Virus record (IMG/VR): IMGVR_UViG_2675903650_000004
Location: 1-30,314 of that record
Reading direction: 5' to 3' (one strand)
Length of the DNA: 30,314 nucleotides
Source: a virus
Taxonomy: Duplodnaviria > Heunggongvirae > Uroviricota > Caudoviricetes
The notes under the pieces were generated by a model. The model saw only the letters and a list, made by a program, of their open reading frames with translations. It was not told the DNA's origin and searched no databases. Below, piece after piece: positions 9,590-29,360 of the stretch (position 1 is its first letter; every line of letters starts with the position of its first letter). The position numbers were made by a program, and so were the translations under genes.

Positions 9590-9601
9590 GTGACATGTCA
9601 C
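9590..9601. repeat. perfect 12-bp palindrome GTGACATGTCAC, copy 1 of 3
   Basis: Identical 12-mer also at 27084..27095 and 29349..29360; all three at 3' ends of transcription units next to hairpins. Confidence 0.8.
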
Positions 9602-9604
9602 GAC

Positions 9605-10018
9605 TTATAAAGATGACTGATATTTTACAACTCTGTTCATGGCATCTTTTTTCACCGAGCTGATATCAGTTCTTATTTTGGCTTCGTCATTACTGCTTAT
9701 CATGCTATTAATTTTTTGCACTGACATGCCGTTTCTTTCAGCCATTGCACATACAGCAGCATCGTATGAAGAACTCGCTGCGATGGATATCACCTTGTTA
9801 CACTCAAACACAGCACCTTCAGCAATATCAGATGCCGATGAGGCTGGCTTGGTATAAGTCTTGACGTAGTGATCAATACAACTATCCTTCGCCGTCTTGG
9901 CAAGAGAAAAATCCATTTTAACTTTGTCGCAATATGCCTTATCAACACCGTCATAAACATCATAGGATGTCGAGCAAGCGGATATCAAAAATACCGATAA
10001 CAGCAATAATTCCTTCAT
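9605..10018 (-). CDS. lipoprotein (moron at distal end of the ejection-protein operon)
   Basis: 137 aa; signal peptide with lipobox ISAC; AAGGAA RBS; AT-rich relative to upstream structural genes; Cys-rich periplasmic domain. Confidence 0.8.
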   Translation of the reverse strand: MKELLLLSVFLISACSTSYDVYDGVDKAYCDKVKMDFSLAKTAKDSCIDHYVKTYTKPASSASDIAEGAVFECNKVISIAASSSYDAAVCAMAERNGMSVQKINSMISSNDEAKIRTDISSVKKDAMNRVVKYQSSL

Positions 10019-10027
10019 TGTTGTTCC

Positions 10028-12502
10028 TTATTGCGGAGTGACATCCTGAGGTCGCCACCAGTATGTCTGGTTAAACTCTTTCTTTGAACGTTGCTCCATT
10101 TTACGCAAATAGCCTGGTGAAAAATACTCCTGCATCTGGTTAAAGATCATGTGATCGAGAGCCGCCTTCAAATACCAGAGATTCGCACCAGGCATCAAAC
10201 CTTTCCCAAGCTTAACCAAATCACCACCAGTCTGCTCATTCTTCCCTTCCACAGCATTTAACGGTATACCCTGAGCAATCTTCACTACGTCATCAACCAG
10301 ACCAGCTACCGGGCCAAGCATCGACGCTAGTGCGCCGCTCCCGTACCTGGTGTGGTCAGAGAAAAGAAAATCACCATACAACCCTGCCCCACCACCTTTT
10401 AAAAATGCATTTATCCAGAATTTAACCATGTTGTCACCGGTCATTTCTTTTGGATTTCTCCCATTAATAAGATCAGTAATCTGCATGGAAAGAGCACCAA
10501 GCATGGTTGTGCTTGCTAAAAACGTTGCTATATATGCCGCACGCCCACCAGCAGACGGCATCCCCATAGCTCTATGCCAGTGACGCATAACTACCGAGAT
10601 AGGGAACGATTTAAACAGGAAAACACTTCTCGTTAATTCACCTTTCCATGTTCCACGCTGAAGACCAGACCCTACGAACATCTGTTCACGTGCGCCCGGT
10701 GTAATAACAGCCATATCAACTTCTTCAGTTACGGCACCGAGCAGTTTACGCATTGCCTCAAATTTCACACGTTCAGGCTCACCAAGATGTTTAACTGCTG
10801 AATCAGGGATACGCATAATGCTTTCCGGTGTCAGCATCGTATTATTACCGTTCCCCCAGTCCTCCTGTTGCGCCAGCTTCCATACGCTCCAGTCTGTGTC
10901 AGTAATCCCTTTGCTTTTCAGGATACGAAAATCAGAGTCATCGAGGCTACGAAGGTCTGGTGTCCGTGACACTACTTCTCCCAGGCTTCCCATCATGGTT
11001 ACGCCATAAGCGCGCTTGTGCGCATCTGACCATGCTGTAAGTCCACTGGCACGCATTACCGCCGTTGCCGCCCAACGAGACACAGACGGCCCCATATTAT
11101 CCATCGCCCAGCGGTTAACGCTGCCAAGTAGAGATTCCATCGCCAGACCAGCGCGGCGCGCCCGCGCAAGCTCAGTACGGTTCGTTGGGTCCATAGCTTC
11201 AAGCTGGTTGCGGAATAACTGGTTCATTGGAAGGTTGGTAACCTTCGCAGACAGATATATGGTTCCAAGATCAGAGAACGATGACAGCAACGCGGATCCG
11301 AGCCTGCTGGCAACCAGCCAGTTTCTGATATTGTCAGACCAGCGCGCGATGTGAGGATTCGCAACAGGCTGTGTCTTTCCGGAAATAAAGTTGTACAGGT
11401 TCTCTGTTTTGTTCGCCAGCCGCTCGACGCTACCGGTTTTACTCGGGTTAGCTGTTGCCGTTTCTGCCTTCACCTGATCAAGAAGAGAGCGGAAAACATG
11501 ATCAGGGTTTGGGCCATATGTTTCCACCAGTGCAATATCTTTACTGATACCTTCCAGGTGACCGACCATGATTTCCCATAGAGAGCGATCGCCATAAAGT
11601 TGCTGATATTGCAGATAGGAATCTGCATCTTTGAAATGTATCTGTCGTGATGCATTACCACGGTTAGCACGTGCGCCGGAAATTCGCATTCCGGTATCAG
11701 TAAGCTTATTCAGCCCACCAGTAGCGATCGTGTTATAAGCCTCTCCAAGAAATGCAGACAACTCGGCATCGTTCATCAGTTGTCCATCGGCTCGGATATA
11801 ATATTTGCGATCCAGCTTACCTATAACATCGCTAACCCACTTATCCTTTGATACCGCCCCAACCTTTTCCATAGAATGATGTTGAGGGATTCCCCAGTTT
11901 TCGAGATAGCCAATGTCCCCACCAGCATCATTAAACCGGCGGCGCAGTAGATCTGTCACTTCTCTCCACGCCTTAGCACCTTTTCTTGCTTTAGCATTGC
12001 CAGTATTTTGCCCTCGCATTTCATATACCAGGTCACGCACGCCAGCTTCATCTTCAAACAGGCCAAAAAAGCGAGGATCAACTGCTTCAAATGCCTCTTG
12101 CAATTGACTCAATGCATAATCACGAGTGGCTTTTGTTCTGGACTCAACAGAGAGAAAATTCGATTTACCGTCTGCATTAAAAGCAATAGTACGGTTAAGA
12201 GCGCCGAGTTTCCCATCAGCCCCTTGATAGCTATTGATAAATTTATCCAATCTCTGACGTGCGGCTATAGTGAGGGCCACACGACGTTTCTTTAATGCCG
12301 CTTCTCGCTGTAATTCTTCAGATGCCAATTGTGCTGCACGATATAGCCGCTCTGATTCGGAAAGTTGTCTCCACGACATCGGGTCATCACGAGCAATGGA
12401 GCGCATATTTCGATAAATGCGGTCTTCAATGTTCTGTATTTCTCGCGCCGTTAACGTGCGCTGCGCCGCCTGCTGGACCGCTTGTATACATTCCTGTCTC
12501 AT
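10028..12502 (-). CDS. internal virion / DNA-ejection protein (large)
   Basis: 824 aa, tightly packed in late operon after other core proteins; position and size as in podovirus ejection proteins. Confidence 0.8.
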   Translation of the reverse strand: MRQECIQAVQQAAQRTLTAREIQNIEDRIYRNMRSIARDDPMSWRQLSESERLYRAAQLASEELQREAALKKRRVALTIAARQRLDKFINSYQGADGKLGALNRTIAFNADGKSNFLSVESRTKATRDYALSQLQEAFEAVDPRFFGLFEDEAGVRDLVYEMRGQNTGNAKARKGAKAWREVTDLLRRRFNDAGGDIGYLENWGIPQHHSMEKVGAVSKDKWVSDVIGKLDRKYYIRADGQLMNDAELSAFLGEAYNTIATGGLNKLTDTGMRISGARANRGNASRQIHFKDADSYLQYQQLYGDRSLWEIMVGHLEGISKDIALVETYGPNPDHVFRSLLDQVKAETATANPSKTGSVERLANKTENLYNFISGKTQPVANPHIARWSDNIRNWLVASRLGSALLSSFSDLGTIYLSAKVTNLPMNQLFRNQLEAMDPTNRTELARARRAGLAMESLLGSVNRWAMDNMGPSVSRWAATAVMRASGLTAWSDAHKRAYGVTMMGSLGEVVSRTPDLRSLDDSDFRILKSKGITDTDWSVWKLAQQEDWGNGNNTMLTPESIMRIPDSAVKHLGEPERVKFEAMRKLLGAVTEEVDMAVITPGAREQMFVGSGLQRGTWKGELTRSVFLFKSFPISVVMRHWHRAMGMPSAGGRAAYIATFLASTTMLGALSMQITDLINGRNPKEMTGDNMVKFWINAFLKGGGAGLYGDFLFSDHTRYGSGALASMLGPVAGLVDDVVKIAQGIPLNAVEGKNEQTGGDLVKLGKGLMPGANLWYLKAALDHMIFNQMQEYFSPGYLRKMEQRSKKEFNQTYWWRPQDVTPQ

Positions 12503-12507
12503 TTAAT

Positions 12508-29238: not shown

Positions 29239-29245
29239 AACCACC

Positions 29246-29277
29246 GTGGTAATAGTTACCGTTGTGGTAATAGTACC
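29246..29277. repeat. tandem direct repeat GTGGTAATAGT(T)ACC x2 directly upstream of terS
   Basis: Two copies with period 18 in the 5' untranslated region of terS; each contains inverted GGTAA...TTACC half-sites. Confidence 0.7.
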
Positions 29278-29280
29278 ATG

Positions 29281-29307
29281 CAAAATAAAGCCGCCATAGT
29301 TGGCGGC
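29281..29307 (-). terminator. intrinsic terminator (minus strand) upstream of terS
   Basis: On minus strand: GCCGCC-AACTAT-GGCGGC followed by TTTATTTTG. Confidence 0.55.
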
Positions 29308-29348
29308 AGTATTCAAAACCCATCAAATTCATCATGCATAATCTACTC

Positions 29349-29360
29349 GTGACATGTCAC
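29349..29360. repeat. perfect 12-bp palindrome GTGACATGTCAC, copy 3 of 3
   Basis: Overlaps stop of ORF 29357..29704. Confidence 0.8.

What the first reader, a model, noticed from the sequence alone, without database searches (positions are those of the whole stretch)
9590..29360. Three identical copies of the perfect 12-bp palindrome GTGACATGTCAC at module boundaries
Copies lie at 9590..9601, 27084..27095 and 29349..29360. Chance occurrence of three identical 12-mers in 30 kb is negligible. Each copy lies at the 3' end of a transcription unit within 0-45 nt of a terminator-type hairpin, and each marks a junction between plus-strand accessory DNA and minus-strand late genes or the terminase region. 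The spacing (GTGA-N4-TCAC) does not fit CRP, LexA or other regulators I know. Candidate roles are a binding site for a dimeric phage protein, a recombination or module-exchange junction, or an RNA 3'-end processing element.
Basis: seen in the sequence. Interest (0 to 1): 0.6.

Follow-up and report, generated by a model that had tools for sequence, protein, structure and literature searches.

The report
Phage protein's conserved DNA docking palindrome
The three identical 12-base palindromes are real and are most likely docking sites for a small uncharacterised DNA-binding protein whose gene ends inside one of them, a gene-plus-site pair shared by many unrelated temperate phages and so far undescribed.

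Summary
GTGACATGTCAC occurs exactly three times (9590, 27084, 29349), against 0.03 expected for GTGAC-NN-GTCAC. The window is an epsilon15/phiV10-like (Uetakevirus) prophage. The same 12-mer sits at the same three places in relatives from Escherichia, Salmonella, Enterobacter and Klebsiella (one or two sites absent or displaced in TL-2011b and Kp4865-1), although the flanks diverge or are unrelated.

The key finding concerns site A. It overlaps the TGA stop codon of a 112-115 aa gene (29357..29704, minus strand) from an unnamed family with no Pfam match. The model has a ribbon-helix-helix (RHH) domain and a Cys-rich zinc ribbon. Homologues occur in N15-like, P2-like, Mu-like, lambda-like and Vibrio phages. 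Most of them also carry GTGAC-NN-GTCAC at or near the gene's 3' end, often with further copies. The half-sites never change and the centre differs by lineage. Lambda, P2 and 105 kb of E. coli K-12 have none.

Best reading: the palindrome is this protein's cognate DNA site. In this phage the copies mark three transcription-unit ends, each 5' of an intrinsic terminator. A role in controlling transcription at those boundaries is inferred, not shown. It resembles matS but fails the spacing test. Cargo exchange at the sites is real but looks secondary.

The parts
29349..29360 (.). Palindrome copy A. Bases 2-4 on the minus strand are the TGA stop codon of the RHH/zinc-ribbon gene. It lies 41 nt upstream of the terminator that closes the early-right operon.
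   Evidence: The same geometry is seen in 77 of 80 Uetakevirus loci, and in N15-like and P2-like phages.
27084..27095 (.). Palindrome copy B, at the convergent junction between the terminase genes (minus strand) and a plus-strand cargo unit (tRNA plus PF13876 gene). It lies 4 nt after the cargo stop codon and 4 nt before the plus-strand terminator.
   Evidence: Conserved in 8 of 9 compared genomes and 55 of 80 loci.
9590..9601 (.). Palindrome copy C, at the convergent junction between the end of the late structural operon (minus strand) and plus-strand accessory genes. It lies 3 nt after the last late gene's stop codon and directly abuts the minus-strand terminator.
   Evidence: Conserved in phiV10, epsilon15, TL-2011b, SPN1S, Tyrion, HEMP4, BUCT554 and 65FD, with unrelated upstream genes.
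29357..29704 (-). Gene for the candidate binding protein (115 aa from the GTG at 29704; homologues are mostly 112 aa, which suggests a start at 29695). It has an N-terminal basic helix, a ribbon-helix-helix domain and a C-terminal Cys-rich zinc ribbon. Family phrog_536, no Pfam family.
29290..29307 (-). Intrinsic terminator hairpin (tail TTTATTTTG) between copy A and the terminase small-subunit promoter/operator region.
27100..27119 (+). Intrinsic terminator hairpin (tail TTGTTTTAT) of the plus-strand cargo unit, next to copy B.
9572..9589 (-). Intrinsic terminator hairpin (tail TGTTTTTAA) of the late operon, abutting copy C.

Best explanation
GTGACATGTCAC is the cognate double-stranded DNA site of a small phage protein with a ribbon-helix-helix domain and a zinc ribbon. 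That protein is encoded by the gene at 29357..29704 (minus strand), whose stop codon lies inside copy A. An RHH dimer would read the two invariant half-sites, GTGAC and GTCAC; the central two base pairs are free to differ between phage lineages. The feature found in most family members sampled is one site at or near the 3' end of the protein's own gene. A bound dimer there is placed to obstruct or modify RNA polymerase leaving the early operon, giving negative feedback and closure of that operon. In epsilon15-like phages two further copies sit at the other two ends of the structural-gene block. All three boundaries of that block therefore carry the site immediately 5' of an intrinsic terminator.

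Shown: the motif, its conservation, its co-inheritance with the gene, the RHH fold of the model, and the terminator polarity. Inferred: that the protein binds the motif. More weakly inferred: that binding controls termination or read-through at these boundaries.
For: (1) Three exact copies against 0.03 expected.
(2) The motif is 99-100% conserved at the three homologous places in nine genomes from four host genera, while the 40-nt flanks score 0.52-0.85.
(3) Gene and motif co-occur across unrelated virion types. In 80 Uetakevirus loci there are 133 hits against 1.3 expected, all but two at the gene's stop codon or after the large terminase gene. In 49 N15-like loci there are 105 hits against 0.84 expected, with centre TG, at the gene stop, inside repA, and between genes 33 and 32. 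In 56 P2-like loci there are 58 against 0.87, with centre GC, at the gene stop. Vibrio phage K233 has 3 copies. Of six more distant members (27-35% identity), five have GTGACAGGTCAC or GTGACCGGTCAC in the locus and four have it within 40 nt of the gene's end; in the Mu-like member it lies inside a C-terminal extension of the reading frame.
(4) Phages without the gene (lambda, P2) and 105 kb of E. coli K-12 have no copy.
(6) A cargo gene 96% identical in a Stx2 phage lacks the palindrome, so the site belongs to the backbone that carries the RHH gene.
(7) The palindrome is 5' of the terminator on the terminated strand at all three sites.
Against: No binding experiment exists and none could be run. 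The DNA-facing positions of the predicted beta-strand are not conserved while the half-sites are invariant, so the base-reading residues are unidentified; the invariant Arg11 and Arg16 in the N-terminal helix are candidates. One distant member (P0236) has only 1-mismatch sites, and one short contig has none. P2-like phages carry a single site, and in N15 and in 20 Uetakevirus loci site A is followed by the next gene's ribosome-binding site, not by a terminator. The coupling to terminators is therefore not a family-wide feature. The set of control genomes without the gene is small.
Confidence: 0.6

Rival explanations
1. The motif acts as RNA. It would be a short element in the 3' untranslated region or between genes (GUGACAUGUCAC) that is recognised by the same protein or by an RNase. 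It would control 3'-end formation, mRNA stability or translation of the next gene.
For: All three copies are transcribed just before a terminator. In N15, Vibrio K233, L202 and 20 Uetakevirus loci the motif lies 9-19 nt upstream of the next start codon, next to the ribosome-binding site. Copies with an asymmetric centre mostly keep one orientation relative to the gene's strand.
Against: The hairpin is only -1.2 kcal/mol and no better than shuffled sequence. The putative stem never covaries across lineages whose proteins are 30-45% identical, while the putative loop varies, which is the opposite of the usual pattern for RNA hairpins. The protein's fold is that of double-stranded-DNA binders. 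No Rfam family matches.
Confidence: 0.12
2. The motif is bound by a host factor, not the phage protein. One candidate is MatP, whose matS site GTGACRNYGTCAC has the same half-sites. Another would be some other conserved nucleoid or transcription protein.
For: The 12-mer equals matS with the central base removed (established knowledge of matS; a true matS 13-mer was seen in the K-12 sample). The half-sites are invariant across phages of Escherichia, Salmonella, Klebsiella, Yersinia and Vibrio, all hosts that have MatP.
Against: The spacing is 2 bp, not 3, in about 300 phage copies. Only one 13-bp variant was seen. The motif tracks the phage gene closely and is absent from lambda and P2, which infect the same hosts. 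One member comes from a 65% G+C contig of an unidentified host.
Confidence: 0.07
3. The palindrome is primarily a recombination site: a hotspot or site-specific target at which accessory 'cargo' genes are swapped in and out.
For: Homology with TL-2011b stops within 2-3 nt of the palindrome. At site B more than 10 unrelated reverse-oriented cargo genes end about 4 nt from it. At site C the upstream gene differs between phages, while palindrome plus terminator are constant.
Against: No dedicated recombinase accompanies the sites. The same cargo gene in lambdoid phages lacks the palindrome. Site A, the one site shared across most of the family, is not a cargo junction in most lineages. Perfect conservation of both half-sites over large evolutionary distance points to a binding function. 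Any conserved island between variable DNA will look like a junction.
Confidence: 0.08
4. The motif is a transcription initiation element. Each half reads GTGACA, a 5-of-6 match to the -35 hexamer TTGACA, so the palindrome could be a promoter element, possibly one dependent on an activator.
For: The scan reports GTGACA-18-CATGAT at site A. Epsilon15 has GTGACA-17-TAAATT at the same place (read).
Against: No acceptable -10 element follows sites B or C in either direction. Downstream sequence at site A differs completely between relatives. The late units already have their own promoters overlapped by repressor operators.
Confidence: 0.04

Closest known systems
matS sites bound by MatP (E. coli Ter macrodomain organiser)
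   Different: matS has 3 bp between the half-sites and this motif has 2. The phage protein shows no sequence homology to MatP (hhalign probability 0.4%). It also lacks MatP's four-helix bundle and coiled coil and has a zinc ribbon instead. The sites are in phage genomes at operon ends, not in the chromosome terminus.
Phage and plasmid ribbon-helix-helix repressors with short palindromic operators (P22 Arc and Mnt, CopG, ParD/MazE antitoxins)
   Same: A small RHH protein is encoded next to its inverted-repeat site, and autoregulation through a site at its own gene is plausible.
   Different: Classical operators overlap the promoter upstream of the gene. Here the site overlaps the gene's stop codon and the other copies are at 3' ends of operons. 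The protein carries an extra Cys-rich domain. The same half-site is kept across podo-, sipho- and myovirus lineages, whereas classical operators diverge quickly.
lacI-O3 arrangement (operator at the 3' end of the repressor's own gene acting as a roadblock)
   Same: A binding site overlaps the 3' end of the binder's own coding sequence. Bound protein can then truncate its own transcript and limit read-through into what follows.
   Different: This is a recalled analogy only and nothing was tested here. LacI is a LacI/GalR-type helix-turn-helix protein, and O3 is an auxiliary operator for looping.
Lambda Q antiterminator with its DNA binding element and downstream terminator
   Same: The regulator gene is the last gene of the early-right operon and is followed by a DNA site, then a terminator, then the packaging genes.
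   Different: There is no homology to any Q family. No late promoter embraces the site. The terminase genes have their own repressor-controlled promoter. Copies B and C have no counterpart in the Q system.
TraR/DksA-type C4 zinc-finger proteins (RNA polymerase secondary-channel factors; phage homologues such as P2 Orf82)
   Same: The C-terminal half (long helix plus CxxC...C ribbon) aligns weakly with TraR and YbiI (E 0.04; hhalign probability 72%).
   Different: The protein is below Pfam thresholds. The second CxxC pair is not conserved. TraR-type proteins do not bind DNA and have no RHH domain.

Membership tests
matS / MatP system | 13-bp consensus GTGACRNYGTCAC, with three base pairs between the half-sites | tested here: not met
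   All three window copies, and about 300 copies in related loci, have two base pairs between GTGAC and GTCAC. A genuine 13-bp matS was found in the K-12 sample for comparison.
matS / MatP system | The binder is MatP or a homologue | tested here: not met
Ribbon-helix-helix protein with cognate operator | The adjacent protein has the RHH fold | tested here: met
Ribbon-helix-helix protein with cognate operator | A short inverted-repeat site is inherited together with the gene | tested here: met
   The motif lies at or near the gene's 3' end in Uetakevirus, N15-like, P2-like, Mu-like, lambda-like and Vibrio phages. Counts exceed chance about 100-fold. It is absent from lambda, P2 and K-12 samples.
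Ribbon-helix-helix protein with cognate operator | Physical, sequence-specific binding of the protein to the site | not testable with these tools
   This needs a gel-shift, footprint or ChIP experiment.
Ribbon-helix-helix protein with cognate operator | The operator overlaps the promoter it represses | tested here: inconclusive
   There is only a weak promoter-like match at site A and none at B or C. The sites lie at 3' ends of units.
Intrinsic (Rho-independent) terminator | Stable G+C-rich hairpin followed by a T-tract | tested here: not met
   The palindrome alone folds at -1.2 kcal/mol, no better than shuffles, and has no T-tract. The neighbouring hairpins do meet the definition, so the palindrome accompanies terminators and is not one itself.
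Lambda-type Q antitermination module | DNA site embedded in a late promoter, and protein homologous to a Q family | tested here: not met
   There is no Pfam, NCBIfam or PDB sequence match to Q. No conserved promoter surrounds site A. Only the gene order resembles Q.
TraR/DksA C4 zinc-finger family | Match to the family profile (PF01258) with four zinc-binding cysteines | tested here: inconclusive
   There is no Pfam hit for any of 54 members. The profile against PDB gives TraR and YbiI at E 0.04, and hhalign gives probability 72%. Three cysteines are invariant or nearly so, and the fourth position varies.
CRP, LexA or SlmA binding sites | CRP TGTGA-N6-TCACA; LexA CTGT-N8-ACAG; SlmA GTGAGTACTCAC (consensus sequences recalled from the literature) | tested here: not met
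   Direct reading of the 12-mer shows the spacing fits neither CRP nor LexA. The SlmA consensus shares only the outer GTGA/TCAC and differs in the central four bases. True LexA boxes occur separately next to site A in Kp4865-1 and BUCT554.
Generic host repeat (REP/BIME-like) | Many copies scattered through the host chromosome | tested here: not met
   There are no copies in 105 kb of E. coli K-12 and none in the 10-kb early-region flanks of 80 prophage loci. A whole-genome count was not possible.
Cassette recombination site (integron attC-like) | The site travels with the cassette and is served by a dedicated recombinase | tested here: not met
   The same cargo gene in a Stx2 phage and in mEpX1 lacks the palindrome. 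No recombinase gene lies near sites B or C.

The most novel reading that the evidence does not exclude
The protein would be a DNA-tethered relative of the TraR/DksA factors that bind the RNA polymerase secondary channel. Docked on GTGAC-NN-GTCAC just upstream of a terminator, or at the end of its own gene, it would act on the polymerase passing or pausing there. It would switch termination on or off locally and so insulate phage transcription units from one another. That would be a site-specific elongation or termination regulator of a kind not described before, and it would be spread across temperate podo-, sipho- and myoviruses.
Probability: 0.15. Interest if true: 0.85.

Novelty: new variant of a known kind. 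Interest (0 to 1): 0.62.

Why it matters
The gene and site A are present in 674 of 5,426 complete E. coli genomes, where the gene is annotated only as a hypothetical protein. The family reaches into N15-like plasmid-prophages, P2-like, Mu-like, lambda-like and Vibrio phages. A 10-base recognition sequence that stays invariant while the protein diverges to about 30% identity gives a directly testable handle on an unknown regulator of temperate-phage gene expression. If the sites control read-through at operon ends, they would explain how epsilon15-like phages keep convergent cargo and late units apart. They would also supply compact, portable insulator parts. The near-identity of the half-sites to matS raises a further testable question: do phage sites and the host's chromosome organiser interact?

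Tried and rejected
- Literature: full-text searches for the 12-mer and its lineage variants found only unrelated primers. Searches on epsilon15, phiV10, SPC32H and N15 gp46 gave no functional study of the gene or motif. One paper reports a protein annotated 'gp46' in a telomere-phage lysogen proteome, but its identity with this family could not be checked. The epsilon15 genome paper was not held.
- Repressor operator: rejected. The epsilon15-type operators are ATTACC-N5-GGTAAT and lie elsewhere.
- Promoter: rejected, because there is no consistent -10 element.
- RNA family: Rfam finds nothing at the sites, and the hairpin energy is trivial.
- MatP homology: not detectable by sequence.
- Protein annotation: Pfam, NCBIfam and PDB sequence searches give no family. 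Foldseek against PDB and viral models is uninformative. The AlphaFold database library was unavailable.
- Profile-based locus searches with diverse alignments failed for lack of a conserved stretch, so single-protein queries were used.
- Counting the 12-mer in a whole host genome or across all phage genomes was not possible, because collection scans need at least 14 specified bases.
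Full report
**Observation.** GTGACATGTCAC occurs exactly at 9590..9601, 27084..27095 and 29349..29360. With the centre left free (GTGACNNGTCAC) the window still has only these three matches. Shuffled sequence gives a mean of 0.03 and never reaches three. A 2-mismatch match at 24046 lies inside a structural gene and is not part of the set.

**What the window is.** It is an epsilon15/phiV10-like podovirus (genus Uetakevirus), with 95-98% identity to phiV10, phiv142-3, ZX5 and others. The late genes are on the minus strand:
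- small and large terminase genes (about 29235..27170);
- portal to the last late gene (about 26005..9605);
- tailspike (6986..4884).

The plus strand carries accessory units. One is a tRNA plus a PF13876 gene (26433..27079). The other is a Bro-N antirepressor, a YafO-like toxin and a membrane protein (7740..9566).

**Local anatomy.** The terminator scan places a hairpin plus T-tract at three positions:
- minus strand 9589..9572;
- plus strand 27100..27119;
- minus strand 29307..29290.

In each case the palindrome lies 5' of the terminator on the terminated strand, at 0, 4 and 41 nt, and directly after a stop codon. Site A contains the TGA of the gene at 29357..29704. Site B follows the cargo gene's TAA by 4 nt. 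Site C follows the last late gene's stop by 3 nt. The three copies sit at the three ends of the structural-gene block: early-right operon to terminase unit (A), terminase unit against cargo (B), and late operon against accessory genes (C).

The late units have their own promoters, overlapped by epsilon15-type repressor operators (ATTACC-N5-GGTAAT). These are a different motif.

**Conservation.** The exact 12-mer is found at the homologous three places in phiV10, epsilon15, SPN1S, Tyrion, HEMP4, BUCT554 and 65FD. TL-2011b has two copies, and Kp4865-1 has sites A and B plus a third copy inside the late genes. The only variants change the centre (GTGACCTGTCAC). Across nine genomes the motif columns are 99-100% conserved, against 0.52-0.85 for 40-nt flanks. 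At site C the upstream gene is unrelated between phages.

In 80 further IMG/VR loci (1.37 Mb) there are 133 copies against 1.3 expected. All but two are at site A or site B, and none is in the 10 kb of early region upstream. Other terminators in these genomes lack the motif.

**The key link.** The gene ending in site A encodes a 112-115 aa protein with no Pfam, NCBIfam or PDB sequence match. It belongs to PHROG 536, which is labelled 'transcriptional regulator' without stated evidence. Homologues occur in several phage types, and the motif follows the gene in most of them:
- **Phage N15 (gp46).** The stop codon is again embedded in GTGACTGGTCAC, and there are two more copies.
- **P2-like Yersinia phages.** The motif is GTGACGCGTCAC at the stop codon.
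- **N15-like loci (49).** 105 hits against 0.84 expected.
- **P2-like loci (56).** 58 hits against 0.87 expected.
- **Vibrio phage K233.** Three copies, one of them 19 nt upstream of the small terminase gene, plus one 13-bp variant.
- **More distant members (27-35% identity)** from lambda-like, Mu-like, P22-like and unclassified contigs. Five of six carry GTGACAGGTCAC or GTGACCGGTCAC, four of them within 40 nt of the gene's end. In the Mu-like case the motif persists inside a C-terminal extension of the reading frame.
- **Exceptions.** One member has only 1-mismatch sites and one short contig has none.

Lambda, P2 and 105 kb of E. coli K-12 have no copy. The half-sites are invariant across the whole family, and the central dinucleotide is lineage-specific (AT, TG, GC, AG, CG, AC).

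**Interpretation.** The simplest account of all this is that the palindrome is the protein's cognate DNA site. An RNA role is less likely for three reasons. The hairpin is worth only -1.2 kcal/mol. The 'stem' never covaries while the 'loop' varies. The fold is that of duplex-DNA binders.

What binding achieves is not shown. The feature shared most widely across the family is a site at the 3' end of the protein's own gene. This suggests obstruction or modification of polymerase leaving the early operon, and feedback on the gene itself. The lacI-O3 arrangement is a recalled analogy. In epsilon15-like phages the added copies, each tightly apposed (1-4 nt) to a terminator hairpin at a convergent junction, suggest reinforcement or switching of unit boundaries. 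This is inference. In N15 and in 20 Uetakevirus loci site A is followed by the next gene's ribosome-binding site and not by a terminator.

**Module junctions.** Homology between phages does break at the palindrome, and at site B at least ten unrelated cargo genes end about 4 nt from it. However, a cargo gene 96% identical in a Stx2 phage, and 75% identical in mEpX1, lacks the palindrome, with homology ending at the stop codon. The site is therefore part of the recipient backbone. The junction pattern is what any selected island between variable DNA would produce.

**Comparison with known systems.** The motif equals the matS consensus (GTGACRNYGTCAC) minus its central base, and MatP is also an RHH protein. 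The spacing test fails, and there is no sequence homology. This is a resemblance and a lead, not membership. The motif does not fit CRP, LexA or SlmA sites, is not itself a terminator, and has no Q-type features beyond gene order. No paper in the searchable library mentions the motif.

**Verdict.** The feature is real, strongly selected and previously undescribed. It is best classed as a new variant of the RHH protein/operator theme: an operator embedded in the regulator's own stop codon, conserved across very different temperate phages, and in this phage marking all three ends of the structural-gene block. The gene plus site A occur in 12% of complete E. coli genomes.

Noticed in passing
window 7522..7706 (+): Rfam finds an isrK Hfq-binding RNA (7522..7598) and a C4 antisense RNA (7623..7706) directly upstream of the Bro-N antirepressor-like gene (7740..8465). 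This is a P1/P7-type antisense-RNA immunity module controlling an antirepressor.
   Followed up: no
window 7090..7106, 8537..8553, 26095..26111, 29237..29253, 29255..29271: There are five matches (1 mismatch each) to the epsilon15 repressor operator ATTACC-N5-GGTAAT, against 0.05 expected. They lie upstream of the tailspike gene, the YafO-like gene, the portal operon and the small terminase gene (two in tandem). The late units therefore appear to be repressed directly by the prophage repressor.
   Followed up: partly
window 28642..29316 (-): The ORF for the small terminase subunit, as listed and as annotated in phiV10, starts at 29316. It would then contain the terminator hairpin and both operator-like sites. 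Epsilon15 and TL-2011b annotate a 594-597 nt gene, which puts the likely true start near 29235.
   Followed up: partly
L001 (phiV10 record NC_007804.2), ends of the record: The deposited linear phiV10 sequence is opened inside palindrome A. Joined across the ends it reads GTGACATGTTAC, one mismatch from the copy in all relatives. This may be an end artefact.
   Followed up: no
L002 26618 (epsilon15) and L004 26722 (SPN1S): A degenerate fourth copy (GTGACATGGCAT and GTGACATGTCAT) overlaps the TGA stop of the Rz spanin gene at the end of the lysis operon in the Salmonella phages. The window has no counterpart.
   Followed up: no
L006 about 12710..12770 (Kp4865-1), L008 about 8200..8258 (BUCT554), and three IMG/VR loci: In Klebsiella/Enterobacter relatives site A is followed within 6 nt by a strong promoter (TTGACT ... 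TATACT) overlapped by a canonical LexA box (TACTGT-N8-ACAGTA), ahead of a small gene. This is probably an SOS-controlled antirepressor inserted between the regulator gene and the terminase genes.
   Followed up: no
window 26433..26506 (+) and 26708..27079 (+): A tRNA gene (tRNA-Arg in the annotation of relatives) and a PF13876 (N4 gp49 / Sf6 gp66) gene form the plus-strand cargo unit closed by site B. One homologue of this gene family is annotated as an anti-CRISPR protein in a Pseudomonas phage record.
   Followed up: no
L010 33237 (N15, inside repA) and L204 4907 (Mu-like prophage, inside the transposase gene): In some lineages extra copies of the motif lie inside replication or transposition genes and not at operon ends. 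The N15 repA copy is conserved in most of the 49 N15-like loci (absent only where the flank is short). No explanation so far accounts for this.
   Followed up: no
window 8740..9312 (+): A YafO-family toxin-like gene (PF13957, just above threshold) lies among the plus-strand accessory genes. No obvious antitoxin partner was examined.
   Followed up: no
L012 19491 (Vibrio phage K233): One copy has the 13-bp spacing, GTGACACCGTCAC, which fits the host matS consensus. It also overlaps a stop codon. It was the only such variant seen.
   Followed up: no
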